IMG/VR virus record: IMGVR_UViG_3300029610_000240
Source of the DNA: a virus
Lineage: Duplodnaviria; Heunggongvirae; Uroviricota; Caudoviricetes
Strand: one strand, 5' to 3'
DNA: 64,000 nucleotides
Below are positions 36,134-54,043 of this stretch, one piece after another (the first letter of the stretch is position 1; every line of letters begins with the position of its first letter). Below the pieces are notes generated by a model. That model saw nothing but the letters and a program-made list of their open reading frames with translations. It made no database searches and was not told where the DNA came from. The position numbers were made by a program, and so were the translations under genes.

Positions 36134-36277
36134 GTTTTGTAATCGTGTAAAAGCACTTAAATATGCTGTAGAAGATGTTTTGTTACTGTGCAACGGAAAT
36201 ATGTCTAAATGATTTAATTTATTACTACTTTTTATTCCTTTGTTTTGTAACCGTGTAACGGAGACATGTCTAAATGG
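36134..36277 (+). CRISPR. guide module B mini-array (3 repeats)
   Basis: Repeats at 36134..36165 (decayed), 36177..36212 and 36242..36277 (GTTTTGTAACCGTGTAACGGAGACATGTCTAAATGG). Spacers are 11 nt and 29 nt (TTTAATTTATTACTACTTTTTATTCCTTT). Confidence 0.7.
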
Positions 36278-36356
36278 TCAAATTATTTTGCACGGTGCGT
36301 AAAAATAAGAAATTATCGAATAGGCTCGTTAAAACGAGAGCTGCCGTGTGGCAGTA
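36278..36356 (+). ncRNA. tracrRNA-like scaffold B
   Basis: TCAAATTATT linker. Anti-repeat TTGCACGGTGCGTAAAAAT pairs with ACCGTGTAA. Nexus AAGAAATTATCGAAT. Hairpins CTCGT-TAAA-ACGAG and CTGCC-GTGT-GGCAG. Confidence 0.75.
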
Positions 36357-36499
36357 AATCTAAGCTACATCAATTTCAAGATTATAATTTGGGAGGAGAA
36401 AATGTTTGGGAAAATTAATGTTTTTTATTTATTGTTGGCTATATATTTGTATTATTTGTTATATTCTTGCAGCCAAGAACAAGAAAGAAGGTGTAGTGT

Positions 36500-37183
36500 A
36501 TGATTAATTTTTCAGTAGTTCATAATTCTTTATTCATTTTGCTTAGTATCATCTTTATATTATCTACAATAAATCCGCTCAAACATCGCTACGAACCAAT
36601 CATAGATATTGAGCCGCAGATCATAAAAATTAAAGATGGAAAATATGTAAAAATTGATTATATCATATACTCTCAGATTATAGATTCAAAATTGTATCGT
36701 AAGAAAAAGAATGAAAATATAATGAAATTAATGAGGATGAAATCATTATATATATTAGAACGTATTATTCGAAATATGCCATACAAAACAATTGTTGATC
36801 AAAGAGAATATATCGAAAATAATCTACAGACACAATTAAATGATAGTTTAAGAAAATATGGAATTGGAGTAGAACGTGTTGCTTTAAAAAATATTTTGGA
36901 AGATTCAGTTCTTGTATCTTGTGTAGATAAAAGCTCGAATGAAACTCATAAATGTACTTCCGAAGAAGTAGGAGATATTCCAAGTTATGTTGATGATCAT
37001 GTACGGACAGATTATATATCTATTTTTCAATATAATGATCAGATAATCAAATCAAGAAATAAAGATATTTATGATCAAGTAGAAGTTGGGAAAAAATACA
37101 ATGCTAGAATTAAGATTCTAATACATAATGATCAAACAGAAAATTATGATGTGGCAGAAATTATATCCGGAATTAAAAAATGA
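36500..37183 (+). CDS. membrane protein with weak SPFH/band-7-like segment
   Basis: N-terminal TM helix. LNDSLRKYGIGVERVALKNI resembles the SPFH core. Confidence 0.4.
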   Translation: MINFSVVHNSLFILLSIIFILSTINPLKHRYEPIIDIEPQIIKIKDGKYVKIDYIIYSQIIDSKLYRKKKNENIMKLMRMKSLYILERIIRNMPYKTIVDQREYIENNLQTQLNDSLRKYGIGVERVALKNILEDSVLVSCVDKSSNETHKCTSEEVGDIPSYVDDHVRTDYISIFQYNDQIIKSRNKDIYDQVEVGKKYNARIKILIHNDQTENYDVAEIISGIKK

Positions 37184-37201
37184 GGAAGGGAGCAAAAGAA
37201 A

Positions 37202-38038
37202 ATGTCAAACAAAAAACTTATACTTTGTAAGTTTATATTTTTTATAGGAATGTGCATTTTATATTCATGTTCCTGGCAAGGACTTGAACTATATTTTTAT
37301 GGAAAAATTACTACAGAGGATTTTGATACAATACGGTGCATTACCATGTTGCCGGTATTCTGGAAGTTGACAAATTATTTTGCTACTTCGTTTATACAAA
37401 AGATTCACATTATACCACTTCCTGGGCAGGAAAGAGAATTTTCTCACAAACGATTAGAAGTTTTTGCTACAAGATGTGCTACATATTTAGGTATTTGGGC
37501 TTTGTTAGAGGTAATGTTTTTCAAGAGTTATAAACATCAGATTGTAGAATTAATAATGCTTTTCGTTTTTGGCGGTTTAGTTTGGATTGTATCAAAATAT
37601 AGCCTTCTATCAGCAATCATGGGAAGTGCTAATACAGGTAAATCAAATCTTGTGAATAGATTTAATAAATTGAATCTAAGAGATATTTATATGATTTATA
37701 AAGATCATAACGAATATTCAATGTATATATATGATCCGAAAGATAAAGATGACGAATTTATTGGATTCCAGATTGCTTATTTCCGTTTTGAGTTTTTAAA
37801 TCTTACTAAAACGCAAAGGAATATCATTCAAGAAGTGCTTGATCGAGCATACAGTGATCATTCATTTGAGCTAGTTGAAATTATCATGGCTCTACGTAGT
37901 ATTCATATTGCTTATTATCTGACTTTTGCCCCAACATCGGATATGTCAGGAGAAGTAGCTGTGTATACTTATGCTTCATCATTTCTTCCATTTTATAAAC
38001 GATGCATTGAAGCAAAATTATATAAACCGATAAGATGA
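37202..38038 (+). CDS. multi-pass membrane protein
   Basis: 278-aa ORF with RBS GGAAGGGAG and several hydrophobic helices. Confidence 0.55.
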   Translation: MSNKKLILCKFIFFIGMCILYSCSWQGLELYFYGKITTEDFDTIRCITMLPVFWKLTNYFATSFIQKIHIIPLPGQEREFSHKRLEVFATRCATYLGIWALLEVMFFKSYKHQIVELIMLFVFGGLVWIVSKYSLLSAIMGSANTGKSNLVNRFNKLNLRDIYMIYKDHNEYSMYIYDPKDKDDEFIGFQIAYFRFEFLNLTKTQRNIIQEVLDRAYSDHSFELVEIIMALRSIHIAYYLTFAPTSDMSGEVAVYTYASSFLPFYKRCIEAKLYKPIR

Positions 38039-38340
38039 TAATATAAAGAGGTGTAAAGATGTTTATGTTAGGAACTGGATTTTTCTTTTTTGTTTTCTGA
38101 TTGCAATTGGATATTTTTTGTACAAGTATTTTTCTCATTTTGGAGTTAACATACTTTCTGTAACGTTTCTAATTGTTATGTCCATTTTTTATTATTTCTT
38201 CATTTGTTTTGCCAAAACTTTGGAATGCCGGAGTTAATTCACCAGAACAATTTGTATTGGAATGCCAGAATGAAAAATAAATATCAGAAGAAATAACCTT
38301 TATATTTTTTTGAAATATGATATAATATAGTTGTATTTTT

Positions 38341-38421
38341 TATTAGATTTTAGAATTCCTATTAGAAGGATTCTGGACTTTATTAGACTTTGGAAATTCC
38401 ATTAGGGAAGTGCTGAACTTT
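38341..38421 (+). repeat. two tandem ~40-bp repeats downstream of an extended -10 promoter
   Basis: TTATTAGATTTTAGAATTCCTATTAGAAGGATTCTGGACT and TTATTAGACTTTGGAAATTCCATTAGGGAAGTGCTGAACT. TGATATAAT lies at about 38318..38326. Confidence 0.6.
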
Positions 38422-38611
38422 TTAAAGAAAAACTTAAATAGAAACTTAATAACCAATTTAGGATGTAAATTTAGCAATTACTTTAGTATTGCGTATTTTT
38501 ACATCCTTTTTTATTTTACAAAGGAGGAAAATAAATGTAAAACATAATGGATAAACGTGTAATGTTGCGTATTTTTTAACAGTATGCTACTCTAAAAGAA
38601 AGGAAATAACG

Positions 38612-39127
38612 ATGGACATAATAAATAAATTAAACAAGAAAGGCAATGTTACTATGGAAGATATTTTATATCATGGAAGTAAAATGATTGTTTCTGAGCC
38701 AGAAATAAGAAAATCACGATTTACAAAAGATTTTTCGTGGGGATTTTATTGTACTAATCGAAGGAAACAAGCTGAAATTTGGTCAGTTCGTCATTGCGAA
38801 ACAGGATACGTCAGTGTTTATAAATTTCATAAGAGAAATGATTTAAAAATCAAAGTCTTTTCTACGACAGATGCAGAATGGTTAGATTTTGTTGCAAAAT
38901 GCAGAAATGGAGATATTCATGAATATGACATTGTAGAAGGCCCTATGGCGGATGATACTATTTACAATTATGTAGAGGATTATCTTGATGGGAAAATTTC
39001 GAAAGATGATTTTTTACAGTTGGCAAAATTCAAACATCCAACACATCAAATATCTTTTCATACCATTAAAGCATTGTCTTGTCTTGAATTTTTAAATGCA
39101 GAGGAGGTGCATGATGAAGGTCAATGA
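38612..39127 (+). CDS. DUF3990-like protein
   Basis: ILYHGSKMIVSEPEIRKSRFTKDFSWGFYCT matches my memory of DUF3990. It overlaps its usual partner gene. Confidence 0.5.
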   Translation: MDIINKLNKKGNVTMEDILYHGSKMIVSEPEIRKSRFTKDFSWGFYCTNRRKQAEIWSVRHCETGYVSVYKFHKRNDLKIKVFSTTDAEWLDFVAKCRNGDIHEYDIVEGPMADDTIYNYVEDYLDGKISKDDFLQLAKFKHPTHQISFHTIKALSCLEFLNAEEVHDEGQ

Positions 39128-39539
39128 AAATGATTTATTTTATATTTGTTCTTTGATTGAGTCTGTATCGAGAAAATCCGGAAATAGTAAGGCTGATATT
39201 GTTGATACACTTGGAGAAAAAAAGCTTCGACGTTTGTATCGATTTGCCAATATCAATCACTGTTTGCCAATAGAACAGGTTACACAAGAAGTAATTGAGG
39301 ATAATCAGATTGTATGTCAAGAAAAGATTTCTCAGAGTCGCAAGCAATCCGTATGGGATTCTGGTCATATATATCAAAGATTGATTGTAGATACGATGAA
39401 TGGGAATGATTGGCTATCAAAAATGAAAGAGATATATCATTCCTGGATCTGCAAATATTTAGACAACGATAAGAAGCCTATCTACTGGCAACCTCGCAGC
39501 TATATACGAGAATGCTATTTACAGCAGAAAATTTTGTAA
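39111..39539 (+). CDS. DUF3791-like protein
   Basis: ATG at 39111 behind GAGGAGG. Overlapping pair with the DUF3990-like gene. Confidence 0.45.
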   Translation: MMKVNENDLFYICSLIESVSRKSGNSKADIVDTLGEKKLRRLYRFANINHCLPIEQVTQEVIEDNQIVCQEKISQSRKQSVWDSGHIYQRLIVDTMNGNDWLSKMKEIYHSWICKYLDNDKKPIYWQPRSYIRECYLQQKIL

Positions 39540-39804
39540 TAATAGTGGAACTTAAGAATCATTGATGATTCAGTGTATTCGGGTAAAATGGAGTCCATGT
39601 TAGGATATCCCAAGGAACCCCTCTGTACGGCAATACGGAGGGGTTTATTTTTGTATTATAATAAAATGATATGCAAATGTTATAATTTATGTTATAATAT
39701 ATATAGTGAGTTCGTGCATATATTAATATGTACGAACTTTTTGTATATGGGCATTCTGTATAAACAGAGTGCCTTTTTTCATGTCTAAAATTAGGAGGAT
39801 AACA

Positions 39805-40899
39805 ATGAGAAAAAGAAGAATTGCAGTAGAGTTGTTTGCAATGATGATCGCGGTTACCGGTGTATTTCATGGAAGTATGAATGTTAATGCAGCGACAAAA
39901 AAGATTACCGTAGATCAAACATATGAAAATGCAACGAAAATCAAGGGAAAAACCAAAAAGGGATGTGTTGTTAAGGTAAAAATCGGGAAAAAGACATATC
40001 AATCCAAAGTAAACAAGAAAGGAAACTATAGTGTTAAGGTTTCTAAATTAAAACTTGGAAAGAAATATACTATGACTGCATATCAGAAGAAAAAGGTATA
40101 TGCGAAAAAGAGTTTTTATGCAGAAACAAAGAATATCAAAGTAAATGCATTTACAGAAAATGATCATATTTTTTCTGGATATGCTCCATCCAAAGCATAC
40201 ATTGTATTAAAATGCAGCGGAAAATCATATACGACAACAGCCAGCGTATCAGGATATTGGAAAATTGATACGAAAAAGCCGCTTGGAAGAAATCGTATTG
40301 AAATGAAAGTTTATAAAAAAGGAAAAGTTATTGCGAAGTATTGGAAAGAATATCAGAAAGAATCATCCGTAACGGATAAAAATGATGATCAAAACAATGC
40401 AGCATCCGCTGTACATAAGCATTTATATAATATTCCTGTATATAAAACCGTTCATTTTGATGAAGCAGGTCATTATGAGACAATCATAAGCTCAGGATCT
40501 TATTATGAAAAAGAAGTTTCTCACGACATCTGTGATACATGTGTGAAAGATCTTACGCAGGAATATATCAATGGGATAAAAGATGGGACTTATAAAAAAG
40601 TTGAGATTCCAAAGAATGATGAGAATACAAGTAGCTCTAAAAGTCGAGACATTCTTGACGATTATAAAGAAATTCGATGGAGTAATGATATGCCACTATA
40701 TGAAGATTTTATCGCATATGGTGGATGGAATCATACATGTTCCGATCATAAACTAACAGAGCAAACAGAAACAATTATGGCGTATTTTCCTGGGGCTATT
40801 CGTAAGGATTGGATTGTGGATCAGAAAGCTCATGATGAGCAAGTTGTAATCGGATACCAATGTAGTTGTGGAGACATCCATAAAGTAGAAAATAATTAG
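39805..40899 (+). CDS. secreted protein with bacterial Ig-like repeats
   Basis: ATG at 39805 behind AGGAGGA. Signal peptide ending NVNA. Repeated K-rich beta modules: KIKGKTKKGCVVKVKIGKKTYQSKVNKKGNYSVKV. Confidence 0.65.
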   Translation: MRKRRIAVELFAMMIAVTGVFHGSMNVNAATKKITVDQTYENATKIKGKTKKGCVVKVKIGKKTYQSKVNKKGNYSVKVSKLKLGKKYTMTAYQKKKVYAKKSFYAETKNIKVNAFTENDHIFSGYAPSKAYIVLKCSGKSYTTTASVSGYWKIDTKKPLGRNRIEMKVYKKGKVIAKYWKEYQKESSVTDKNDDQNNAASAVHKHLYNIPVYKTVHFDEAGHYETIISSGSYYEKEVSHDICDTCVKDLTQEYINGIKDGTYKKVEIPKNDENTSSSKSRDILDDYKEIRWSNDMPLYEDFIAYGGWNHTCSDHKLTEQTETIMAYFPGAIRKDWIVDQKAHDEQVVIGYQCSCGDIHKVENN

Positions 40900-40986
40900 A
40901 ATATTAACATATTAAAAAAGGCATTCCGCTTATTGAACGGAGTGTCTTTTTTTGTGCGTAGACTTATTTAGAAGGACTCAATAATA

Positions 40987-43065: not shown

Positions 43066-43252
43066 TTGTTATTATAACAGATAAAATATAACATTATATC
43101 ATAATTCAAATAAAAAAATTCGGTTTATAAAACCCATTTTTTTCGATAAAAATCATAAACAATAAATAAAGGTCCGGTATCACAGACGGAATTCTCATGG
43201 ATGAGAAATGTAACCATCAATATGCAGATTAGAAATAAGAAAGGACAGAAGT

Positions 43253-43600
43253 ATGTCAGGAATTAACATGGAGACAATCAAAACATTAGAAATGATCAAT
43301 ATGCTTGTACAAAAAGCAAAAAATGGAGTAAAGCCATTTTCAGAAGCCACATTAGAAAATATGGATAACTATATTTTTTATGATGAAAAAGCCGAAACTG
43401 AAAATGGATTCCCGATTGTACATGGCATGATGGTGGATGAAGATCATCATGATGTACTGTCAACATTAGACCAGTATATCAACAGTGACGATGAATATAC
43501 TGTCAGAGTAAGATTCGATGAAGACGATTACATGTACATCGAATTTCAGTTAGATGATGGCATCATTGAGATCGATGAAAATGGATGGTATGTTGCCTAA
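43253..43600 (+). CDS. hypothetical acidic protein
   Basis: 115-aa ORF with RBS AAAGGACAG. Confidence 0.5.
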   Translation: MSGINMETIKTLEMINMLVQKAKNGVKPFSEATLENMDNYIFYDEKAETENGFPIVHGMMVDEDHHDVLSTLDQYINSDDEYTVRVRFDEDDYMYIEFQLDDGIIEIDENGWYVA

Positions 43601-43699
43601 ATCTAAAAAAAGATAGTGTTTAATATTTTTAGACAGATTCATTGGATGTATAAGAAATGTAAATAATCATCCGTTATTATCCATATCATATACAAAATG

Positions 43700-43847
43700 T
43701 GTATTTTGTGTAAAATGTGTTAAAAACATAATTGCCACAAATGATGATATGTGATACAATTTCATGGTAACATATGAATTGCACTCTGATGCAACGTAGT
43801 ATGTGATAAAGTTATGCTCGCATGAGACGAGATCTGCCGGGTGGCAG
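43700..43847 (+). ncRNA. degenerate tracr-like scaffold (module X)
   Basis: Repeat-like ATTTTGTGTAAAATGTG..ATTGCCACAAATGATG. Shortened nexus GTATGTGATAAAGTTATG. Intact hairpins CTCG-CATGAGA-CGAG (43817..43831) and CTGCC-GGGT-GGCAG (43834..43847). Confidence 0.45.
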
Positions 43848-43856
43848 AGGTAAAAA

Positions 43857-43880
43857 GGCCAGAGAATATCTGGTCTTTTT
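43857..43880 (+). terminator. rho-independent terminator after module X
   Basis: CCAGA-GAATAT-CTGG stem followed by TCTTTTT. Confidence 0.5.
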
Positions 43881-46126: not shown

Positions 46127-49100
46127 GTGCAGAATGGATTTTTAGGAATAACTGTTAGTAGTGAACAGGTTGGTTGGGCAGTTACAAATCCCAAATATGA
46201 GTTAGAACGTGCATCTCGAAAAGATTTATGGGGTGTAAGGCTTTTTGATAAAGCAGAAACAGCGGAAGATCGAAGAATGTTCCGTACAAACAGACGATTA
46301 AATCAGAGAAAAAAGAACAGAATACATTATCTTAGAGATATTTTCCATGAGGAAGTAAATCAAAAAGATCCTAACTTTTTTCAGCAATTAGATGAAAGCA
46401 ATTTCTGTGAAGATGATCGTACTGTAGAGTTTAATTTTGATACTAATCTTTATAAGAATCAGTTTCCAACAGTGTATCATTTAAGAAAATATCTAATGGA
46501 AACAAAAGATAAACCAGATATTCGTCTGGTATACTTAGCTTTTTCAAAATTTATGAAAAATCGAGGACATTTCTTATACAAAGGAAATCTTGGAGAGGTT
46601 ATGGACTTTGAAAATTCCATGAAAGGCTTTTGTGAAAGTTTAGAGAAATTTAATATTGACTTCCCTACATTATCAGATGAACAGGTAAAAGAAGTCCGAG
46701 ATATCTTATGTGATCATAAAATTGCTAAAACTGTGAAAAAGAAAAACATCATTACTATTACAAAAGTAAAAAGTAAGACAGCAAAAGCATGGATTGGACT
46801 GTTTTGTGGTTGCAGCGTTCCTGTTAAAGTATTATTTCAGGATATCGATGAAGAAATTGTAACGGATCCAGAAAAAATCTCATTTGAAGATGCTTCTTAT
46901 GATGATTGTATTGCAAATATTGAAAAGGGTGTCGGTATTTATTATGAAGCTATTGTTTCTGCAAAGATGCTTTTTGACTGGTCTATCCTGAATGAAATTT
47001 TAGGTGACCATCAGTTATTAAGTGATGCAATGATCGCAGAATACAATAAGCATCATGATGATTTAAAGCGTTTACAGAAGATCATTAAAGGAACTGGCAG
47101 TAGAGAATTATATCAGGATATCTTTATTAATGATGTTTCTGGAAATTATGTATGCTACGTTGGTCATGCAAAAACAATGAGTAGTGCAGATCAGAAACAG
47201 TTTTATACATTTTTAAAAAATCGATTAAAAAATGTGAATGGTATTTCATCAGAAGATGCAGAATGGATTGATACAGAGATTAAAAACGGTACTTTACTAC
47301 CAAAACAGACAAAACGTGATAACAGTGTTATTCCGCATCAATTACAGTTAAGGGAATTTGAATTAATTCTTGATAACATGCAGGAAATGTATCCATTCTT
47401 AAAAGAAAACAGAGAAAAATTATTAAAAATCTTCAATTTCGTTATTCCTTATTATGTAGGTCCGCTAAAGGGCGTTGTAAGAAAAGGAGAGAGTACAAAC
47501 TGGATGGTGCCTAAAAAAGATGGTGTGATTCATCCATGGAATTTCGATGAAATGGTAGACAAAGAAGCGTCTGCGGAATGTTTTATTTCCCGAATGACAG
47601 GAAATTGTAGTTATTTATTTAATGAAAAAGTTCTTCCAAAGAATTCTCTTCTTTATGAGACATTTGAGGTATTAAATGAGCTAAATCCATTAAAGATCAA
47701 TGGAGAACCTATCAGCGTGGAATTAAAACAGAGAATTTATGAACAGCTTTTCTTGACAGGGAAAAAAGTTACAAAAAAATCTCTGACAAAATATCTTATC
47801 AAGAATGGCTATGACAAAGATATTGAATTATCAGGTATTGATAATGAATTTCACAGCAATCTAAAATCTCATATTGATTTTGAGGATTACGATAATCTAT
47901 CTGATGAAGAAGTTGAACAGATTATTCTTAGAATTACAGTATTTGAAGATAAGCAGCTGTTAAAAGATTATTTAAATCGCGAGTTTGTAAAGCTCTCTGA
48001 GGATGAGAGAAAACAGATTTGCTCATTATCTTATAAAGGATGGGGAAACTTATCAGAAATGCTATTAAACGGTATTACTGTAACAGATTCCAATGGTGTA
48101 GAAGTTTCTGTAATGGATATGCTGTGGAATACAAACTTAAATCTGATGCAGATCTTAAGTAAGAAATATGGATATAAAGCAGAAATCGAACATTACAATA
48201 AAGAACATGAAAAAACCATTTATAATCGTGAAGATTTGATGGATTATTTAAATATTCCACCGGCTCAGCGTAGGAAGGTAAATCAGCTGATTACGATAGT
48301 AAAATCTCTCAAAAAGACATATGGAGTTCCAAATAAGATTTTCTTCAAAATAAGCAGAGAACATCAGGATGATCCAAAGAGAACTTCATCCAGAAAAGAA
48401 CAGCTAAAATATTTATACAAATCCTTAAAATCAGAAGATGAAAAACATCTTATGAAAGAGCTTGATGAATTGAACGATCATGAATTATCCAATGATAAAG
48501 TTTATCTTTATTTTCTACAGAAAGGACGCTGCATTTATTCTGGCAAGAAATTAAATCTTTCAAGATTAAGAAAATCTAATTATCAGAATGATATTGACTA
48601 CATTTATCCATTATCTGCAGTAAATGATCGTTCTATGAATAATAAGGTATTAACGGGAATCCAGGAGAATCGAGCAGACAAGTATACCTATTTTCCAGTT
48701 GATTCAGAAATTCAGAAAAAAATGAAGGGATTTTGGATGGAACTGGTTCTGCAGGGATTTATGACAAAGGAGAAATACTTCCGATTATCCAGAGAAAATG
48801 ATTTTTCAAAGAGCGAACTTGTTAGCTTTATTGAACGTGAAATTTCAGATAATCAGCAAAGTGGAAGAATGATTGCTTCTGTATTACAGTATTATTTCCC
48901 TGAATCAAAGATTGTATTTGTAAAAGAAAAGCTGATTTCTTCCTTTAAGAGGGATTTCCATTTAATTAGTAGTTATGGTCACAATCATTTACAAGCTGCA
49001 AAAGATGCTTATATTACGATTGTAGTTGGAAATGTATATCATACAAAATTTACAATGGACCCAGCAATCTATTTTAAGAATCATAAGAGAAAAGATTATG

Positions 49101-50065
49101 ATCTGAACCGATTATTCTTAGAAAATATCAGCAGAGATGGACAGATTGCATGGGAAAGTGGTCCATATGGGTCAATTCAGACGGTTCGAAAAGAATATGC
49201 TCAAAACCATATTGCTGTTACAAAAAGAGTCGTGGAAGTAAAAGGCGGCTTATTTAAGCAGATGCCATTAAAAAAAGGACATGGCGAATATCCATTAAAA
49301 ACCAATGATCCTAGATTTGGCAATATCGCACAGTATGGAGGGTATACGAATGTCACAGGTTCCTATTTTGTATTAGTAGAATCAATGGAGAAAGGGAAAA
49401 AACGTATTTCTTTAGAATATGTTCCAGTATATCTTCATGAGCGTTTAGAGGATGATCCTGGACATAAACTGTTAAAAGAATATCTGGTTGATCACAGAAA
49501 ACTTAATCATCCAAAGATTTTACTTGCAAAAGTAAGAAAAAACTCATTACTTAAGATTGACGGTTTTTATTATCGTTTAAATGGTCGAAGTGGAAATGCT
49601 CTTATCCTTACAAATGCAGTGGAATTGATCATGGATGACTGGCAGACAAAAACAGCAAACAAGATTTCTGGATACATGAAACGCAGAGCTATTGATAAGA
49701 AAGCAAGGGTTTATCAAAATGAATTCCATATTCAGGAATTAGAACAGCTTTATGATTTTTATTTAGATAAATTAGAGAATGGTGTTTATAAAAATCGTAA
49801 GAATAATCAGGCTGAATTAATTCACAACGAAAAAGAACAGTTTATGGAACTCAAGACAGAAGATCAGTGTGTATTATTGACTGAGATTAAAAAGCTTTTT
49901 GTATGTTCTCCAATGCAGGCAGACCTTACATTGATTGGTGGCAGCAAACACACAGGAATGATTGCTATGTCAAGCAATGTTACAAAAGCAGATTTTGCAG
50001 TCATTGCGGAAGATCCTTTAGGACTTAGAAACAAAGTAATTTATTCTCATAAAGGTGAGAAGTAA
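46127..50065 (+). CDS. cas9: Cas9 homologue (type II-A-like size) with substituted RuvC and HNH catalytic residues
   Basis: GTG start 7 nt after AAGGAGGA. Conserved: bridge helix RRMFRTNRRLNQRKKNRIHYLRDIF, FPTVYHLRKYL, NRGHFLYKG, IPHQLQL, IPYYVGPL, PWNFDEMVDKEASAECFISRMT, YKGWGNLS. Catalytic columns: LGITVSSEQVGWAV (D10 is T), IFFKISREHQ (E762 is K), DIDYIYPLS (H840 is Y), QAAKDAYITIVVG (H983 is A, D986 kept). Confidence 0.9.
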   Translation: MQNGFLGITVSSEQVGWAVTNPKYELERASRKDLWGVRLFDKAETAEDRRMFRTNRRLNQRKKNRIHYLRDIFHEEVNQKDPNFFQQLDESNFCEDDRTVEFNFDTNLYKNQFPTVYHLRKYLMETKDKPDIRLVYLAFSKFMKNRGHFLYKGNLGEVMDFENSMKGFCESLEKFNIDFPTLSDEQVKEVRDILCDHKIAKTVKKKNIITITKVKSKTAKAWIGLFCGCSVPVKVLFQDIDEEIVTDPEKISFEDASYDDCIANIEKGVGIYYEAIVSAKMLFDWSILNEILGDHQLLSDAMIAEYNKHHDDLKRLQKIIKGTGSRELYQDIFINDVSGNYVCYVGHAKTMSSADQKQFYTFLKNRLKNVNGISSEDAEWIDTEIKNGTLLPKQTKRDNSVIPHQLQLREFELILDNMQEMYPFLKENREKLLKIFNFVIPYYVGPLKGVVRKGESTNWMVPKKDGVIHPWNFDEMVDKEASAECFISRMTGNCSYLFNEKVLPKNSLLYETFEVLNELNPLKINGEPISVELKQRIYEQLFLTGKKVTKKSLTKYLIKNGYDKDIELSGIDNEFHSNLKSHIDFEDYDNLSDEEVEQIILRITVFEDKQLLKDYLNREFVKLSEDERKQICSLSYKGWGNLSEMLLNGITVTDSNGVEVSVMDMLWNTNLNLMQILSKKYGYKAEIEHYNKEHEKTIYNREDLMDYLNIPPAQRRKVNQLITIVKSLKKTYGVPNKIFFKISREHQDDPKRTSSRKEQLKYLYKSLKSEDEKHLMKELDELNDHELSNDKVYLYFLQKGRCIYSGKKLNLSRLRKSNYQNDIDYIYPLSAVNDRSMNNKVLTGIQENRADKYTYFPVDSEIQKKMKGFWMELVLQGFMTKEKYFRLSRENDFSKSELVSFIEREISDNQQSGRMIASVLQYYFPESKIVFVKEKLISSFKRDFHLISSYGHNHLQAAKDAYITIVVGNVYHTKFTMDPAIYFKNHKRKDYDLNRLFLENISRDGQIAWESGPYGSIQTVRKEYAQNHIAVTKRVVEVKGGLFKQMPLKKGHGEYPLKTNDPRFGNIAQYGGYTNVTGSYFVLVESMEKGKKRISLEYVPVYLHERLEDDPGHKLLKEYLVDHRKLNHPKILLAKVRKNSLLKIDGFYYRLNGRSGNALILTNAVELIMDDWQTKTANKISGYMKRRAIDKKARVYQNEFHIQELEQLYDFYLDKLENGVYKNRKNNQAELIHNEKEQFMELKTEDQCVLLTEIKKLFVCSPMQADLTLIGGSKHTGMIAMSSNVTKADFAVIAEDPLGLRNKVIYSHKGEK

Positions 50066-50106
50066 GTTTTCATATTTGTTCGGAAAATTCATAATCATAT
50101 CGAACG

Positions 50107-50259
50107 GCTTTGGAACTGCGTAGAACATGATATGTCTTATGGCTAAAAGAATTACAGGTGCATATTTTGAACTGTGTAAAACATGGCATATGGGAGAATT
50201 GGCAACGACTGGAACAGAACACAGTTTTGAAACTGTATAAAACATGACATGTCTTATGG
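50107..50259 (+). CRISPR. guide module C mini-array (3 repeats), starting 42 nt after the cas9 stop
   Basis: Repeats at 50107..50142 (6 mismatches), 50164..50193 (30 nt, decayed) and 50224..50259 (GTTTTGAAACTGTATAAAACATGACATGTCTTATGG). Spacers: 21 nt CTAAAAGAATTACAGGTGCAT and 30 nt GAGAATTGGCAACGACTGGAACAGAACACA. Confidence 0.75.
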
Positions 50260-50336
50260 TTCAAATTATTTATACAGTACGTGAAAATAAGAAATTATCG
50301 AATAAACTCGTTTAGACGAGAACTGCTAGAGGCAGT
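50260..50336 (+). ncRNA. tracrRNA-like scaffold C
   Basis: Anti-repeat TTTATACAGTACGTGAAAAT gives a 10-bp perfect pairing with ACTGTATAAA. Nexus AAGAAATTATCGAAT. Hairpins CTCGT-TTAG-ACGAG and CTGC-TAGAG-GCAG (50323..50335). Confidence 0.8.
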
Positions 50337-50352
50337 AATTGCAGAAAATGTC

Positions 50353-50385
50353 ATGAACCCCAAGCGACTTCGTCGGCCGGGGGTT
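50353..50385 (+). terminator. GC-rich hairpin after module C
   Basis: AACCCC..CGAC-TTC-GTCG..GGGGTT nested stem followed by a short T run. Confidence 0.45.
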
Positions 50386-50448
50386 TACGCACCAATTTGA
50401 TAATATTTCTAATCATATATTACCTTATATGATTAATGGAGAAAATAG

Positions 50449-50595
50449 ATGTTTCAAGTAAAAAATAAAGAAACTGGGCAAGAATATACCGTATATGCTG
50501 TCGGGGATGAATATCTGACAAAATTTCTGATTTATGAAGATGGACATTGGAAATGGCAGACTATAGATGATTTTGTTCCAGTGATTGTAGATTAA
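50449..50595 (+). CDS. 48-aa hypothetical protein
   Basis: ATG behind GGAGAAAATAG. Product MFQVKNKETGQEYTVYAVGDEYLTKFLIYEDGHWKWQTIDDFVPVIVD. Below the ORF-track cut-off. Confidence 0.4.
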   Translation: MFQVKNKETGQEYTVYAVGDEYLTKFLIYEDGHWKWQTIDDFVPVIVD

Positions 50596-50612
50596 GAAAG
50601 CGAGAAATTCAC

Positions 50613-50957
50613 ATGAAGATTACAAGAACGATTAAATTTAAAGAATATATCCTCGGATATTTAGAAAAATTAGAGGTTCATGAAGTTCGACGCATTGAAA
50701 AAGCCGGACGATTAAGCCGTGACATTATCAAAGAGGAATCTGAAAAATGCGGACACAAATTAATGATTCTTGATACGATTGAAAAAGAAAGACGTTATGA
50801 ATGTTCATTAGAAGATTTCTTATCCGTTGCAAGAGAGATTCCACTAAAAAATCAGGAGACTGTTAATACAGAAGAAAAAAATGTTCAGGAAGATAATTCA
50901 GAGGATTCTAAGTCTAAGTTAGGCGATTCTGACTGTGCCCCTTGGATTGAAGATTAA
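50613..50957 (+). CDS. hypothetical protein
   Basis: 114-aa ORF lying between guide modules C and D. Confidence 0.5.
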   Translation: MKITRTIKFKEYILGYLEKLEVHEVRRIEKAGRLSRDIIKEESEKCGHKLMILDTIEKERRYECSLEDFLSVAREIPLKNQETVNTEEKNVQEDNSEDSKSKLGDSDCAPWIED

Positions 50958-50961
50958 TGTT

Positions 50962-51117
50962 ATTTTGAGAAATGATTGCAAATGTGATCGTAGCGTACCT
51001 TACTTCACAGCTTAGTTTTGGAACTATGTAAAATCAAATGATTGCAAATGGGCAGAGAGAAAATTTGAAAAATTGTCTGTGTTTTGGAACTATGTAAAAT
51101 CAAATGATTGCAAATGG
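50962..51117 (+). CRISPR. guide module D mini-array (3 repeats)
   Basis: Repeats at 50962..50985 (internally deleted), 51015..51051 and 51081..51117 (GTTTTGGAACTATGTAAAATCAAATGATTGCAAATGG). Spacers: GATCGTAGCGTACCTTACTTCACAGCTTA and GCAGAGAGAAAATTTGAAAAATTGTCTGT. Confidence 0.8.
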
Positions 51118-51193
51118 TCAAAGTAATTGCATGGCGTGTAAAAATAAGAATTTATCGAAATAATTTGCTCCGGCGAAATCTGCAAGATGCAGA
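51118..51193 (+). ncRNA. tracrRNA-like scaffold D
   Basis: TCAAAGTAA linker. Anti-repeat TTGCATGGCGTGTAAAAAT pairs with CTATGTAA through two G:U. Nexus AAGAATTTATCGAAAT. Hairpins TTTGC-TCCG-GCGAA and TCTGC-AAGA-TGCAGA. Confidence 0.75.
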
Positions 51194-51197
51194 AATC

Positions 51198-51265
51198 AAG
51201 CTGATCGATGCTTTACATATTTATCTATTTCAATATTTCTTCAACCATATACATTGATCAGCTTT
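51198..51265 (+). terminator. long-loop inverted repeat with AGCTGATC core (possible terminator)
   Basis: AAGCTGATCGATG pairs with CATTGATCAGCTT (13 bp, one G:U) around a 42-nt loop. A related element lies at 54054..54131. Confidence 0.4.
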
Positions 51266-51290
51266 AATAAAAAGAATTAAAATTACGAAA

Positions 51291-51445
51291 ATAAAATTGA
51301 ATGATTCCAATGGATAGTCGAAAAAGAATTGGATAGTCGACGGGTTTTAGAATAGTGTAAAATTGAATGATTCTAAGGGTTAGATACTCCACTAGATAGC
51401 AAAGTACTTGTTTTAGAATAGTGTAAAATTAAATGATTCTAAGGG
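51291..51445 (+). CRISPR. guide module E mini-array (3 repeats)
   Basis: Repeats at 51292..51313 (3' half only), 51344..51379 (GTTTTAGAATAGTGTAAAATTGAATGATTCTAAGGG) and 51410..51445. Spacers: ATAGTCGAAAAAGAATTGGATAGTCGACGG and TTAGATACTCCACTAGATAGCAAAGTACTT. Confidence 0.8.
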
Positions 51446-51528
51446 GTCAAATAGATTCTATACAATGCGTGAAAATAAGAAACTTATCGAACAAACCTGT
51501 GTAGGAAACAGGAACTGCCGAGGGCAGT
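51446..51528 (+). ncRNA. tracrRNA-like scaffold E
   Basis: GTCAAATAGAT linker, anti-repeat TCTATACAATGCGTGAAAAT, nexus AAGAAACTTATCGAAC. Hairpins CCTGT-GTAGGAA-ACAGG and CTGCC-GAG-GGCAG (51515..51527). Confidence 0.75.
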
Positions 51529-51823
51529 AAAAATAAAAAGCATATTTTTATTATGTTTTATTTTATGATGAAGAGGTGGATGATGGTTCTATCTCTGTTT
51601 TTGAGAAAATGGATGCATTGCAAAATGCAACAATCTTAGAAGTACAAATACATATTGATGACTTAAAAGATAAATTGGAAGAAGTAAAATTTACTCTTAA
51701 AATATCAGGTTTGTATTTGAAGAAGATAATTTTATGGATTCTTATTATAAATCTTATACGTTACCGATTGTATATCACAAAAACTATTTATTAAGTATTA
51801 ACAATGATAAGGAATAACAATAA

Positions 51824-53755
51824 ATGGAAATAGATTACAGAAAAGAATTAAATAAGAGTCAATATGAAGCTGTTACAACGACAGAAGGACCAGTCCTAAT
51901 CCTTGCCGGTGCCGGAACTGGCAAAACTCGTTGTATGGTATATCGTGTGGCATATCTGATTGAAAAAGGCGTGTCACCCAATAATATCTTATTATTGACC
52001 TTTACAAATAAAGCAGCAAATGAAATGAAGCAAAGGGCAGCAGATATGCTTGATGAACGATGTAGTCAAATTACTGCATGTACATATCATTCATTCTGTG
52101 CAAAGATGCTTCGCAAATATTCACAACTGATTGGAATTCAATCAGATTATACAATTATTGATCCGGGAGATTGTGCAGATATCATATCGATCATCGAAAC
52201 AGAACACGGTATGGATAAAGTAAAAGATTTTCCAAGATCATCTCAACTGGTATCAGCACATAGCAAAGCCTTAAATACGAATCAGTCATTAGAGGATACT
52301 TTGTTTGATATGCTCGGTAAATGGAAGTATATGGAAATCGAAAGATTCATTCCAGATATAAAGAAAATCTTAGCGGATTATCAATCATACAAAAAACAAA
52401 ACAACATGATGGATTATGATGATTTGCTAATCAATTTTATATCTGTATTGAAAAGAAACCCTTCTATAAAGAATAAATTAGCTGATATTTATCAGTATAT
52501 TATGATCGACGAATATCAGGATTCTAATTATTTACAGGAAAAGATTATTTTTATGTTACGTGAAAAGAATCGTAACTTAGCAGTGGTAGGTGATGATTAC
52601 CAATGCATCTATGGATTTAGAGGAAGTATGGTAGAAAATATCATTAATTTTCCACAAAAGATGTCCGGATGTAAAGTTGTTTACTTAACACAGAATTATC
52701 GCAGCAATCAAGAGATCATGGATTTATCCAATATTGTTATGAAAAAACATTCACTGGAAGGTTTTTTTAAAAAGCTTGTCGCAACTCATGTGGCCAATAT
52801 TCAGCCATTGCTAGTTCGATCAGAGGACGAGGGCGAAGAAGCTTCTTATATTTTAAATAAGATTATGGCATTACATGATGAAGAAGAGATTCCGTATCAT
52901 GAAATTTGTGTTCTTGAAAGAAGTTCTTATCATTCTGTAAGACTAGAAGCACTTTTAAATAAAATGAAAATCCCATATGACAAATATGGTGGAATGAAGT
53001 TTTTTGATTATGATCATATCAAAAACTTCTTATGCTTTTTGCGATGTCAGATAAATCCACATGATGAAATTGCGTGGTTTCGACTATTAAAGTTATTTGA
53101 TGGTATTGGAAATGTTTATGCCAGAAATATCGCAGCAACATGTAAAACTCTTGGATTAGAGGGACTTGTTCAACACAAATACATAAAAAGAAAATTTCAG
53201 CCGGATCTTGAAAATTTAAAGAGTTTTATTGAAAAGCTTAATGATCAAGATTTTCAGATCGAATTGCAAAGCATTAAATCATTTTATTCACGTTTAATGG
53301 ACATTACATTAATGCTGATGAAAACATCGGAGAAGAAACGTAGGGAGCTTGCTAGAGCAAATAAACAAGCGGTCCGCGATTTTGATACACTGATTGAAAT
53401 GGCAGATGGATATGATTCTCCAGTGACATTTCTGGAAGAAATAATGCTTGAAGCCAGTCCTCAGAAAGAGGAAGAGGAAGATCGAATGGTTATATCTACA
53501 ATTCATTCCGCAAAAGGCTTAGAGTTTCACTCTGTTTTTGTTATGAACTGCGTAGATACAATGTTTCCATCTACAGATAAAGATCAGATTGGAACAGTAG
53601 AAGATAACGAAGAGTTGAGATGCTTCTATGTGGCAATAACACGGGCAAAAGAACGATTATTTTTAATGGCACCGAAATATATAGCCAAATTTGGATGTGT
53701 TGAAGAGGGAATTATCTCCCATTTTATTAGTGATGTTTTTCAAGTAAAGGAGTAA
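51824..53755 (+). CDS. UvrD/PcrA-type SF1 DNA helicase
   Basis: Walker A AGAGTGKT, motif II IMIDEYQDSN, QNYRSNQEI, late STIHSAKGLEF and FYVAITRAKERL. Confidence 0.85.
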   Translation: MEIDYRKELNKSQYEAVTTTEGPVLILAGAGTGKTRCMVYRVAYLIEKGVSPNNILLLTFTNKAANEMKQRAADMLDERCSQITACTYHSFCAKMLRKYSQLIGIQSDYTIIDPGDCADIISIIETEHGMDKVKDFPRSSQLVSAHSKALNTNQSLEDTLFDMLGKWKYMEIERFIPDIKKILADYQSYKKQNNMMDYDDLLINFISVLKRNPSIKNKLADIYQYIMIDEYQDSNYLQEKIIFMLREKNRNLAVVGDDYQCIYGFRGSMVENIINFPQKMSGCKVVYLTQNYRSNQEIMDLSNIVMKKHSLEGFFKKLVATHVANIQPLLVRSEDEGEEASYILNKIMALHDEEEIPYHEICVLERSSYHSVRLEALLNKMKIPYDKYGGMKFFDYDHIKNFLCFLRCQINPHDEIAWFRLLKLFDGIGNVYARNIAATCKTLGLEGLVQHKYIKRKFQPDLENLKSFIEKLNDQDFQIELQSIKSFYSRLMDITLMLMKTSEKKRRELARANKQAVRDFDTLIEMADGYDSPVTFLEEIMLEASPQKEEEEDRMVISTIHSAKGLEFHSVFVMNCVDTMFPSTDKDQIGTVEDNEELRCFYVAITRAKERLFLMAPKYIAKFGCVEEGIISHFISDVFQVKE

Positions 53756-53791
53756 TTTATAGTGAAATGCTTAAATTATGTTGTCAATGTG

Positions 53792-53965
53792 GATTTGAAT
53801 CCATGTAAAAATGTAAAGCAAATGATTCCAAATGGCAATCTTCTCGAATTGTCGTGTAGGCAAAGTTTTGAAACCATGTAAAAAAATGATTCCAAATGGG
53901 TATGCATTGGTGTTTGAAGCGTTTGTGTGTTTTGGAACCATGTAAAAGCAAATGATTCCAAATGG
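53792..53965 (+). CRISPR. guide module F mini-array (3 repeats)
   Basis: Repeats at 53792..53835 (internal duplication), 53865..53899 (2-nt deletion) and 53929..53965 (GTTTTGGAACCATGTAAAAGCAAATGATTCCAAATGG). Spacers: CAATCTTCTCGAATTGTCGTGTAGGCAAA and GTATGCATTGGTGTTTGAAGCGTTTGTGT. Confidence 0.8.
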
Positions 53966-54043
53966 TTAAAAGCAGATTACATGGTGTGTCAAAATAAGAA
54001 CTTATCGAATAGATCTATATAAATGGAATCTGCCAGGTGGCAG
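53966..54043 (+). ncRNA. tracrRNA-like scaffold F
   Basis: Anti-repeat TTACATGGTGTGTCAAAAT gives a 9-bp perfect pairing with ACCATGTAA. Nexus AAGAACTTATCGAAT. Hairpin 2 CTGCC-AGGT-GGCAG (54030..54043). Hairpin 1 is weak and resembles that of scaffold A. Confidence 0.75.

What the first reader, a model, noticed from the sequence alone, without database searches (positions are those of the whole stretch)
36242..54043. Repeat and anti-repeat co-vary module by module (about eight repeat variants, one protein)
The upper-stem segment differs between modules, and the anti-repeat changes to match. B: ACCGTGTAA with TTGCACGGT. C: ACTGTATAAA with TTTATACAGT. D: CTATGTAA with TTGCATGG (two G:U). F: ACCATGTAA with TTACATGGT. 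A: ATATGTAAC with GTTACATA. G: AAACAGATAA with TTATCTGTTT. E and H pair more weakly. Hairpin 1 also co-varies: CTCGT/ACGAG in B, C and G; CCTGT/ACAGG in E; TTTGC/GCGAA in D; CTCG/CGAG in H; TCTA/TAGA in A. Hairpin 2 varies as well: CTGCC/GGCAG, CTACC/GGTAG, GCTGTTA/TAACAGC. Meanwhile the nexus AATAAGAAnTTATCGAA stays fixed. Compensatory changes are the classic sign of a functional RNA structure. They may also keep each crRNA tied to its own scaffold.
Basis: seen in the sequence. Interest (0 to 1): 0.8.

Follow-up and report, generated by a model that had tools for sequence, protein, structure and literature searches.

The report
Guide-RNA cassettes of a dead Cas9
Eight small CRISPR arrays, each joined to its own scaffold RNA whose stems keep pairing through matched mutations, serve a single Cas9 that has lost its cutting residues, on a mobile element from human gut bacteria that carries spacers against gut phages.

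Summary
The window holds eight cassettes on the + strand. Three of them lie outside the given coordinates. Each cassette is a mini CRISPR array (36-nt repeats, about 30-nt spacers) whose last repeat abuts a tracrRNA-like scaffold: anti-repeat, nexus and two hairpins.

The scaffold's 3' part matches Rfam RAGATH-30, an orphan family, eight times. Over 31 distinct cassettes from this and related elements, 88.7% of predicted pairs form, against 34-46% when the partner is slid. Compensatory changes occur in the upper stem, in both hairpins and even in the nexus stem. So this is a type II-A crRNA:tracrRNA fold under selection.

Non-cognate pairs reach 7.1 of 10 against 8.6 for cognate pairs, and relatives carry several near-identical cassettes.

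The context is the surprise. The only Cas9 lacks the RuvC residues (D10T, E762K, H983A) and the HNH histidine (H840Y). Sibling elements have deleted HNH but keep the cassettes. No cas1, cas2 or csn2 was found. Spacers differ between elements whose Cas9 is 99-100% identical. Five spacers match temperate gut phages next to an NRAA flank.

Most likely this is binding-only CRISPR immunity on an integrative element.

The parts
32733..32878 (+). Cassette A. It has one guide-like segment (32733-32762) and one repeat-like strand (from 32763) that folds back on its own anti-repeat (32803-32824). Then come the nexus and two hairpins. It looks like a natural single guide.
   Evidence: Rfam RAGATH-30 hit at 32817-32875, 71.4 bits. 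The fold is and the pairing.
36134..36360 (+). Cassette B. Repeats start at about 36134 (degenerate), 36177 and 36242. The spacer is 36213-36241. The anti-repeat upper strand is 36288-36296. The scaffold runs to 36357.
   Evidence: (78.6 bits).
43798..43853 (+). Degenerate scaffold-like element. Both hairpins are kept, the nexus is decayed, and there is no repeat or anti-repeat.
   Evidence: Weak hit with my model R1, 23.4 bits, E = 0.007. A similar hit sits at the same relative place in L158.
46127..50065 (+). Cas9, 1312 aa, of type II-A build. The catalytic residues are replaced: RuvC-I D10T, RuvC-II E762K, RuvC-III H983A and HNH H840Y.
   Evidence: Pfam REC, PI, bridge helix, HNH and RuvC. 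Alignments to a solved Cas9 and to active relatives.
50107..50341 (+). Cassette C, directly after the cas9 stop codon. Repeats start at 50107, about 50165 and 50224. The scaffold runs to 50338.
   Evidence: (75.7 bits).
50966..51198 (+). Cassette D. It begins with a partial repeat (3' half only). Spacer 50985-51014 matches phage contigs. Then repeat 51015, spacer 51052-51080, terminal repeat 51081, and the scaffold to 51195.
   Evidence: (71.9 bits).
51292..51533 (+). Cassette E. It begins with a partial repeat at 51292-51313. Then spacer 51314-51343, repeat 51344, spacer 51380-51409, terminal repeat 51410, and the scaffold to 51530.
   Evidence: (64.9 bits).
51824..53755 (+). UvrD/Rep-family helicase gene between cassettes E and F. 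It may be a partner of the system. It is present in relatives with 89-100% identical Cas9 and absent from the loci held for the 73-74% clade.
   Evidence: Pfam. Synteny.
53793..54049 (+). Cassette F. Degenerate first repeat at 53793, spacer 53836-53864, repeat 53865, spacer 53900-53928, terminal repeat 53929, and the scaffold to 54046.
   Evidence: (76.4 bits).
55515..55663 (+). Cassette G. It has a single guide-like segment and a long repeat/anti-repeat hairpin (7 + 10 bp). Its nexus carries the compensated C-G pair, and its hairpin 2 is CTGTT/AACAG.
   Evidence: (64.7 bits).
56093..56329 (+). Cassette H. It begins with a partial repeat at 56093-56116. Then spacer 56117-56146, repeat 56147, spacer 56183-56212, terminal repeat 56213, and the scaffold to 56326.
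   Evidence: (67.4 bits).

Best explanation
What it is. The eight units are self-contained guide-RNA cassettes of a system derived from type II-A CRISPR. Each is a mini array whose terminal repeat abuts its own tracrRNA.

The fold. The first 18 nt or so of a repeat pairs with the anti-repeat. This gives a 5-6 bp lower stem (GUUUU with AAAAU), an internal loop and a 9-10 bp upper stem. Then come a 2-bp nexus stem within the conserved AAUAAGAAnUUAUCGAA, and two hairpins. This is the architecture that Cas9 proteins of the S. pyogenes type bind.

Why it co-varies. For this guide-RNA type, Cas9 is known to depend on the shape of the upper stem and hairpins rather than their sequence. These parts therefore drift, and only changes that are compensated survive. 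Each array and its tracrRNA are inherited, and sometimes exchanged, as one cassette. That is why the co-variation appears module by module.

What the cassettes probably do. The only Cas9 has lost the RuvC and HNH catalytic residues. The complexes therefore most likely bind PAM-flanked targets (flank about NRAA) without cutting, and block transcription or replication. The system sits on an integrative mobile element of human gut bacteria. It carries spacers against the lysogeny-switch and early-replication region of temperate phages. New spacers must come from adaptation proteins supplied in trans or from recombination, because no cas1, cas2 or csn2 was found.

Shown: the cassette anatomy, the covariation, the dead catalytic motifs, the spacer turnover, and the phage protospacers with a shared flank.

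Inferred: that the RNAs are made and loaded onto this Cas9; interference by binding alone; how spacers are acquired; whether the terminal repeat and tracrRNA act in cis as a natural single guide.
For: Anatomy: eight RAGATH-30 hits on the + strand, each preceded by 36-nt repeats at 66-nt spacing. Minimum-energy folds give lower stem, bulge, upper stem and two hairpins in A to F.

Covariation. The upper stem has 6 of 10 pairs with changes on both sides. Hairpin 1 has 4 of 4 and is 100% paired. The nexus stem changes from A-U to C-G in G.

Cas9 identity and dead motifs. The losses are conserved in relatives down to 71% identity. Only P0020 keeps the HNH histidine.

HNH is dispensable: proteins P0003-P0018, 96-99% identical, have a clean HNH deletion. 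The locus of P0008 is syntenic with the window and keeps cassettes C to H.

No adaptation genes: tblastn with cas1, cas2 and csn2 from a canonical relative finds nothing in the window or in the loci of the clade. The Pfam scans show none either.

Live arrays: 16 gut-metagenome loci whose Cas9 is 99-100% identical have the same repeats and scaffolds but many different spacers and array lengths.

Targets: five spacers from four elements match the same set of mostly 30-45 kb IMG/VR phage contigs at 27-30 of 28-30 positions. The 3' flanks are GAAAA, AGAAG, GAAAA/GGAAT, GAAAA and CAAAC. The sites lie in cro/cI-adjacent, MazF-like, ImmA-like protease and exonuclease genes.

Mobile element: relatives end in a Tn916-type Xis and Int followed by host genes. 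The window itself has an integrase at 57770-59011 followed by housekeeping-type genes.
Against: - There are no expression or binding data. The promoter scan is no better than chance, and no + strand terminator follows the scaffolds. The transcript ends are therefore unknown.
- The repeat:anti-repeat duplex is short (about 15 bp) and covers only the 5' half of the repeat. Canonical II-A duplexes are longer.
- Nuclease death is inferred from sequence alone. One clade member (P0020) keeps the HNH histidine.
- Phage protospacers lie on both strands (3 sense, 2 antisense). This shows no bias towards the orientation that blocks elongation best.
- Only 2 of the 6 spacers scanned directly had exact IMG/VR matches.
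- No host genome was found, so supply of Cas1-Cas2 in trans is untested.
Confidence: 0.72

Rival explanations
1. Insulation. The eight repeat/anti-repeat variants are kept different so that each crRNA pairs only with the tracrRNA of its own cassette. This would give eight orthogonal channels on one protein.
For: Cognate pairs are better than non-cognate pairs on average: 8.6 against 7.1 of 10 pairs, and -9.4 against -6.0 kcal/mol. Three rough compatibility groups exist: A alone; B to F; G and H.
Against: Within the group B to F, non-cognate pairs reach 8-9 of 10. The cognate anti-repeat is the best partner for only 2 of 8 repeats. Relatives L034 and L038 hold 2-3 cassettes with near-identical repeats and anti-repeats beside one Cas9. 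No benefit of insulation is evident, because all complexes would use the same protein.
Confidence: 0.15
2. Anti-CRISPR decoy. The dead Cas9 and a panel of tracrRNAs with different anti-repeats soak up the crRNAs of the type II systems of various hosts. This was proposed for a phage type II-C Cas9 with a dead RuvC domain. The many variants would widen the host range of the element.
For: A mobile-element Cas9 that cannot cut and sits next to a helicase resembles the published case (PMC10910872, read; PMC11656645). Several anti-repeat variants in one element would fit a broad-host decoy.
Against: - The published case has no arrays. Here every tracrRNA is joined to its own array, with cognate repeats.
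- These arrays turn over spacers and target phages next to a shared flank.
- That shared flank fits Cas9-dependent spacer choice or selection for function.
- Here HNH is also dead or deleted, whereas it is active in the published case.
- The closest canonical gut system found has a different repeat, GTTTGAGAATGATGTAAAAATGTATGGTACTCAAAC.
Confidence: 0.12
3. The diversity is a by-product and not a design. Cassettes are duplicated or swapped by recombination. Direct repeats of identical cassettes would delete the genes between them, so diverged copies persist. Pairing is merely maintained within each copy. This is compatible with the best explanation. It addresses only why there are eight variants.
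For: Cassette C differs between the window and L001 at three repeat positions, with three matching anti-repeat changes, although the Cas9 proteins are 100% identical. Divergence begins in the 3' end of cas9, which suggests exchange of the whole cassette. Cassettes are scattered among genes over 24 kb.
Against: Relatives tolerate near-identical cassettes 1-2 kb apart (L034, L038). Selection against homology is therefore not strong.
Confidence: 0.35
4. The cassettes are decaying remnants of several former CRISPR loci and have no present function.
For: Some copies are degenerate: 43798-43853 in the window, L032 8654 and L034 8034. The first repeats of several arrays are partial.
Against: Compensatory changes in four helices, spacer turnover among near-identical elements, and retention across relatives whose Cas9 is 71-100% identical.
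Confidence: 0.03

Closest known systems
Type II-A crRNA:tracrRNA guide (S. pyogenes / S. thermophilus CRISPR3 type), with the modules lower stem, bulge, upper stem, nexus and hairpins (my knowledge of Briner et al. 2014 and Chylinski et al. 2013)
   Same: 36-nt repeats that begin GTTTT and about 30-nt spacers. GUUUU:AAAAU lower stem, internal loop and upper stem. The nexus follows AAUAAG directly, then two 3' hairpins. The Cas9 has the REC, PI and bridge-helix Pfam domains of this group.
   Different: - The anti-repeat covers only the first 18 nt or so of the repeat.
- The tracrRNA lies directly after the last repeat, on the same strand.
- There are eight or more array-tracrRNA units per element instead of one array and one tracrRNA.
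- There is no cas1, cas2 or csn2.
- The Cas9 catalytic residues are lost.
Rfam RF03055, RAGATH-30 (orphan small-RNA motif)
   Same: Eight hits above the gathering score, full length 1-59. The model is GUAAAAAUAAGAAuUUAUCGAA followed by two hairpins.
   Different: Rfam treats the 5' 26 nt as unpaired and gives no function. Here that stretch is the 3' strand of the lower stem plus the nexus of a tracrRNA, and the partner repeat lies upstream. The held library has no text on RAGATH-30.
tracr-L, the natural single guide that lets Cas9 repress its own promoter (10.1101/2020.05.21.102756, listed; described in PMC10120712)
   Same: A repeat-like strand joined in cis to the anti-repeat and scaffold. 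Action would be by binding and not by cutting. Cassettes A and G, with one repeat each, look most like this.
   Different: tracr-L works with an active Cas9 and an 11-nt match to the cas9 promoter. Here no guide has a seed match of 11 nt or more near cas9. Most cassettes carry full 30-nt spacers that vary between elements.
Phage-encoded type II-C Cas9 with dead RuvC, a tracrRNA and an SNF2 helicase, proposed to be an anti-CRISPR decoy (Altae-Tran et al. 2023, PMC10910872)
   Same: A Cas9 on a mobile element with an inactivated RuvC domain, its own tracrRNA and a neighbouring helicase gene.
   Different: That case is type II-C, keeps an active HNH domain and has no arrays. This one is of II-A build, has HNH dead or deleted, and has many arrays with phage-matching spacers.
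Binding-only RNA-guided systems: type IV-A with DinG on plasmids (PMC11656645), Cas12m and Cas12c (my knowledge; Cas12m is mentioned in PMC10910872), and TldR repressors derived from TnpB (PMC10705468, listed)
   Same: An RNA-guided protein without nuclease activity, often on a mobile element, often without adaptation genes, and sometimes with a helicase. Interference would be by blocking transcription or replication.
   Different: None of these is a Cas9 / type II system, and none uses multiple tracrRNA cassettes.

Membership tests
Type II-A CRISPR-Cas | Cas9 with the REC lobe, bridge helix, HNH, split RuvC and PAM-interacting domain of the II-A group | tested here: met
   Pfam Cas9_REC 1.5e-138, Cas9_PI 2e-57, Cas9-BH and HNH_4. 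The RuvC match is weak. The best solved relative is 9jwk_A, E = 7e-216.
Type II-A CRISPR-Cas | Intact RuvC (D10, E762, H983, D986) and HNH (H840) catalytic residues | tested here: not met
   D10T, E762K, H983A and H840Y, with D986 kept. The losses are conserved through the clade, and HNH is wholly deleted in P0003-P0018.
Type II-A CRISPR-Cas | Adaptation genes cas1, cas2 and csn2 next to cas9 | tested here: not met
   No tblastn hit of the cas1, cas2 and csn2 genes of L058 in the window or in the loci of the clade. No such Pfam domains in the neighbouring ORFs.
Type II-A CRISPR-Cas | CRISPR array of about 36-nt repeats and about 30-nt spacers | tested here: met
   66-nt periodicity in D, E, F and H. 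Up to 6 repeats in relatives. Spacers vary between elements.
Type II-A CRISPR-Cas | tracrRNA with an anti-repeat complementary to the repeat, a nexus and 3' hairpins | tested here: met
   Folds and pair counts. Expression was not tested.
Rfam RAGATH-30 (RF03055) | Covariance-model score at or above the gathering threshold of 59.5 bits | tested here: met
   Eight hits of 64.7-78.6 bits, all full length.
tracr-L-type natural single guide (autoregulator) | A repeat-like strand joined in cis to the tracrRNA, with a short guide that matches the cas9 promoter | tested here: inconclusive
   The cis hairpin is predicted for every cassette. No seed match of 11 nt or more of any window guide lies near cas9. 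A target outside the window cannot be excluded.
Decoy Cas9 anti-CRISPR (Altae-Tran 2023) | No associated array, and an anti-repeat that matches the host's repeat | tested here: not met
   Every tracrRNA has its own array. The host is unknown, so the second half is not testable here.
Binding-only CRISPR interference (works like type IV-A or Cas12m) | Target binding without cleavage that silences or blocks the target | not testable with these tools
   Only the loss of catalytic residues and the presence of phage-matching spacers bear on it.

The most novel reading that the evidence does not exclude
A natural dead-Cas9 CRISPR system, borne by an integrative element of human gut Firmicutes-like bacteria. 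It would give adaptive, non-cutting immunity against temperate phages: silencing them instead of breaking DNA, which would also spare lysogens. Its guides come from many dispersed array-tracrRNA cassettes.

In this reading the terminal repeat both completes a natural single guide in cis and may carry the promoter of the tracrRNA. The arrays of D, E and H start with just the 3' half of a repeat. This would fit transcription starting inside each repeat, as in type II-C systems.

New spacers would be captured with a host's Cas1-Cas2-Csn2 and the element's own PAM-reading Cas9. RAGATH-30 would then be the tracrRNA of this clade.
Probability: 0.4. Interest if true: 0.9.

Novelty: new variant of a known kind. 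Interest (0 to 1): 0.66.

Why it matters
Co-variation between repeat and anti-repeat is expected for any type II system. That part confirms an RNA structure and does not reveal a new one.

It matters for three reasons:
1. It gives an orphan Rfam family (RAGATH-30) a concrete identity as the tail of a tracrRNA.
2. It shows that one Cas9 accepts at least eight natural scaffold variants. This is a ready-made map of which guide-RNA positions are free to change and which are fixed.
3. The protein served is a naturally nuclease-dead Cas9, with live arrays that match phages, on a mobile element.

If binding-only immunity is confirmed, it would be the type II counterpart of the type IV-A and Cas12m systems. 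It would also be a natural precedent for multiplexed CRISPR interference.

Tried and rejected
- My first covariance model (R1) had the hairpin brackets in the wrong register. I used it only to locate scaffolds, never for pair counts.
- MAFFT misaligned hairpin 2, because loops of 3 and 4 nt were not gapped. I analysed that hairpin with a script instead.
- Megablast of 13 kb around cas9 against phage and plasmid records found nothing.
- Two scans of species-representative genomes for the Cas9 found no relative. The host is therefore unknown. The peptide patterns of both scans came largely from the HNH-flanking segment, which the HNH-deleted variants lack.
- Self-targeting: no guide matches the window at 17 or more of its 3' 20 nt. 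The only long seed is an AT-rich 12-mer. A 24-nt match of spacer B at 26019-26042 lacks the PAM-proximal end and was judged to be chance.
- 53 and then 30 spacers were searched against annotated phage records, and the first 53 against plasmid records. The only hit was MT837920. That record turned out to be bacterial DNA (prfA, glmM) and lacks the NRAA flank, so I treat it as doubtful.
- The promoter and terminator scan was uninformative: 39 promoter-like sites against 32 expected, and no + strand terminator after the scaffolds.
- The polarity of spacer gain could not be settled. Cassette E shares its tracr-distal spacers between elements, while cassette F shares its tracr-proximal spacer.
- The canonical gut Cas9 loci (42% identity) have a different repeat and gave no hit with my scaffold model. 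They are not the source of any cassette.
- Eight literature searches found no description of this system. The library is incomplete, so this is not proof of absence.

Full report
**What is in the window**

The window is AT-rich (about 32% G+C) and almost all genes lie on the + strand. An Rfam scan gives eight full-length hits to one orphan family, RAGATH-30 (RF03055). All are on the + strand, at 32817, 36299, 50281, 51138, 51469, 53988, 55601 and 56267.

Each hit is directly preceded by one to three 36-nt repeats beginning GTTTT (GCTTT in H). Spacing is 66 nt in D, E, F and H. The last repeat is followed within about 10-20 nt by a stretch complementary to the 5' half of that repeat. The eight 'modules' are therefore mini CRISPR arrays, each joined to its own tracrRNA-like scaffold.

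A, G and H lie outside. A related contig has at least one more cassette upstream of the window's equivalent start (L031).

**The fold**

Minimum-energy folds of terminal repeat plus scaffold give the same picture in A to F:
- a GUUUU:AAAAU lower stem
- an internal loop
- a 9-10 bp upper stem
- a large loop made of the 3' half of the repeat and a short linker
- two hairpins.

G has a longer upper hairpin of 7 + 10 bp. H pairs weakly. The anti-repeat does not reach the 3' half of the repeat.

The Rfam model covers only GUAAAAAUAAGAAuUUAUCGAA, which it treats as unpaired, plus the two hairpins. Here that 'unpaired' stretch is the 3' strand of the lower stem plus the nexus.

**Is the co-variation real?**

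I tested them in two ways.

First, I fixed the register by anchors that do not depend on pairing: the start of the repeat and the start of the scaffold hit. I then counted pairs between repeat nt 9-18 and the anti-repeat. The eight cognate combinations average 8.6 of 10 and the 56 non-cognate ones 7.1. Only 7 of 20000 random re-assignments reach the observed value.

Second, I collected cassettes from related loci. I made 31 distinct constructs: repeat nt 1-20, the 12-nt upper strand of the anti-repeat, and the scaffold. The variable loop was left out on purpose. I then counted a stated structure on their alignment:
- 88.7% of cells pair, against 34-46% when the 3' partner is slid by 1-3 columns.
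- The covariation score is 0.366 against 0.186 in shuffles (0 of 500 reach it).
- The upper stem has changes on both sides in 6 of 10 pairs, for example C-G, U-A and U-G at one position, and A-U, G-C and C-G at another.
- Hairpin 1 is 100% paired, with all four counted pairs co-varying.
- The 2-bp nexus stem changes from A-U to C-G in cassette G.

Hairpin 2 was analysed by script because loop lengths differ. It shows CTGCC/GGCAG, CTACC/GGTAG, CTGTT/AACAG, CTGCA/TGCAG, CTGTC/GACAG and TTGCT/GGCAA.

The sequences are related to one another, so the shuffle control overstates significance. The slide control does not have that weakness. I take the structure as established.

**Is each crRNA tied to its own scaffold?**

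Only weakly. The repeats of B, D and F pair 9 of 10 with each other's anti-repeats. By duplex energy the cognate anti-repeat ranks first for only 2 of 8 repeats. Relatives whose Cas9 is 73-74% identical carry two or three cassettes with nearly the same repeat and anti-repeat (L034, L038).

Cassette C differs between the window and L001 by three repeat changes with three matching anti-repeat changes, although the two Cas9 proteins are identical. Divergence already starts in the 3' end of cas9. That looks like exchange of a whole cassette. The module-by-module pattern is therefore best explained by each array and its tracrRNA being inherited as a unit under selection for pairing, not by designed insulation.

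**The protein**

The only Cas9 (46127-50065, 1312 aa) has the REC, PAM-interacting, bridge-helix and HNH domains of the S. pyogenes group. The catalytic residues, however, are gone:

| Motif | Active relatives | Here | Change |
|---|---|---|---|
| RuvC-I | GLDLGT | GITVSS | D10T |
| RuvC-II | FVEMARE | FFKISRE | E762K |
| RuvC-III | HHAKD | QAAKD | H983A |
| HNH | DIDHIYP | DIDYIYP | H840Y |

The losses are shared by relatives down to 71% identity; only P0020 keeps the HNH histidine. The next relatives, at about 42% identity, are ordinary active Cas9 proteins of gut Firmicutes and Bacteroidota assemblies.

Sixteen proteins 96-99% identical to the window's Cas9 have a clean deletion of the whole HNH domain. 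The locus of one of them (P0008) is syntenic with the window and keeps cassettes C to H. Cutting is therefore dispensable while the guide cassettes are kept.

**Context**

No cas1, cas2 or csn2 is present in the window or in any held locus of the clade (Pfam). Relatives end with a Tn916-type excisionase and integrase followed by host genes. The window has an integrase at 57770-59011 and housekeeping-type genes beyond 60.9 kb.

No phage structural protein was found among the window proteins scanned. The cargo comprises LPXTG adhesins, a papain-lectin protein, ATLF-like proteases, a cell-wall hydrolase, a PstI-type restriction-modification pair, an IscB with its HEARO RNA, and a TnpB. The closest public contigs are filed as viral (IMG/VR). 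I nevertheless read this as the cargo end of an integrative, perhaps conjugative, element from human gut metagenomes. No cultured or species-representative genome carries it.

**Are the arrays alive, and what do they target?**

Sixteen gut-metagenome loci whose Cas9 is 99-100% identical have the same repeats and scaffolds but many different spacers, and arrays of one to five repeats.

No guide matches the window itself convincingly. Window spacer 50985-51014 matches four phage contigs at 29-30 of 30. A cassette-E spacer from sibling elements matches 32 phage contigs at 28-29 of 30. Searching all spacers against those phage loci found three more hits, from two other elements; one of these belongs to the clade whose Cas9 is 74% identical.

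The five protospacers have the 3' flanks GAAAA, AGAAG, GAAAA/GGAAT, GAAAA and CAAAC, which is about NRAA. They lie in the lysogeny-switch and early replication-recombination region:
- next to cro/cI-like regulators
- in a MazF-like gene
- in an ImmA-like protease gene
- in an exonuclease gene.

Three are on the sense strand and two on the antisense strand. One further hit, to a record labelled as phage, is in fact bacterial prfA and lacks the flank. I discount it.

**Most likely mechanism**

The cassettes supply crRNA and tracrRNA to a Cas9 that can still read a PAM and form an R-loop but cannot cut. Interference would come from occupying early phage DNA, as in type IV-A, Cas12m or engineered CRISPR interference. 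This last comparison rests on my knowledge and on PMC11656645.

Spacer gain would need adaptation proteins supplied in trans, or recombination. A UvrD-type helicase gene sits among the cassettes in the closer relatives and may take part, but it is absent from the loci held for the 73-74% clade.

None of these functional steps is shown here.

**Rivals**

The main rival is the decoy model, proposed for a phage type II-C Cas9 with a dead RuvC domain, an active HNH domain, a tracrRNA and no array (PMC10910872). The presence of cognate, changing, phage-matching arrays at every tracrRNA argues against it here. A host with matching repeats could not be searched for, however. The other rivals, with evidence and scores, are in their own section.

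**Novelty**

The fold is the known type II-A guide architecture, and co-evolution of repeat and anti-repeat is expected. Several features are new relative to what I could find in eight literature searches:
- the identity of RAGATH-30
- the many dispersed array-tracrRNA cassettes for one protein
- their association with a naturally nuclease-dead type II-A Cas9 that has live arrays.

I rate it a new variant of a known kind.

Noticed in passing
window 19765-21319 (+): A HEARO RNA (Rfam RF02033, 112 bits) lies directly upstream of a 424-aa IscB-type protein (RRXRR + HNH). This is a second, unrelated RNA-guided system in the same element.
   Followed up: partly
window 23580-24698 (-): A TnpB-type protein (OrfB_IS605 plus the Cas12f-like TNB domain). 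It is one of the few minus-strand genes inside the element.
   Followed up: no
P0003-P0018; locus L158 10001-13471: Variants of the same Cas9, 96-99% identical, have a clean deletion of about 155 aa that removes the whole HNH domain. The locus fetched for one of them (P0008) is syntenic with the window and keeps cassettes C to H.
   Followed up: yes
window 36276-36283, 50258-50266, 51116-51123, 51444-51452, 56248-56255, and relatives: A conserved linker, GGTCAAA(T/A), follows the terminal repeat in nearly all cassettes, including divergent ones from other contigs. Internal repeats are followed by spacers instead. Its role is unexplained; it could mark the tracrRNA 5' end, a processing site or an integration anchor.
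   Followed up: no
window 50966-50984, 51292-51313, 56093-56116: Arrays D, E and H begin with only the 3' half of a repeat, followed by a spacer. This would fit a transcription start or promoter inside each repeat, as in type II-C systems. The promoter scan could not confirm it.
   Followed up: partly
window 50066-50341 against L001 13940-14170: Cassette C and the last codons of cas9 differ between elements whose Cas9 proteins are otherwise identical. There are three repeat changes with three matching anti-repeat changes. This suggests that whole cassettes are exchanged by recombination.
   Followed up: partly
window 43798-43853; L032 8654-8715; L034 8034-8095: Scaffold-like elements that have both hairpins but a decayed nexus and no repeat or anti-repeat. 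They may be dead cassettes.
   Followed up: no
window 51824-53755: A UvrD/Rep helicase gene is embedded among the cassettes. It is kept next to cas9 in relatives with 89-100% identical Cas9 and is absent from the loci held for the 73-74% clade.
   Followed up: partly
L120 (MT837920.1): A GenBank record labelled 'Bacteriophage sp.' encodes prfA, prmC and glmM-like proteins, by my reading of the ORF starts. It looks like bacterial chromosome. The single spacer hit to it lacks the NRAA flank.
   Followed up: partly
window 13979-16359: An Eco57I-type N6-adenine methylase and a BsuBI/PstI-type restriction endonuclease sit side by side, forming a restriction-modification pair carried by the element.
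   Followed up: no
whole window against L001 (IMGVR_UViG_3300029328_000184): The window is not identical to the closest public contig. The Cas9 is 100% identical, but the spacers of B, D, E and F and the whole of cassette C differ. Spacers E2 and F3 of the window have no exact 24-nt match anywhere in IMG/VR.
   Followed up: yes
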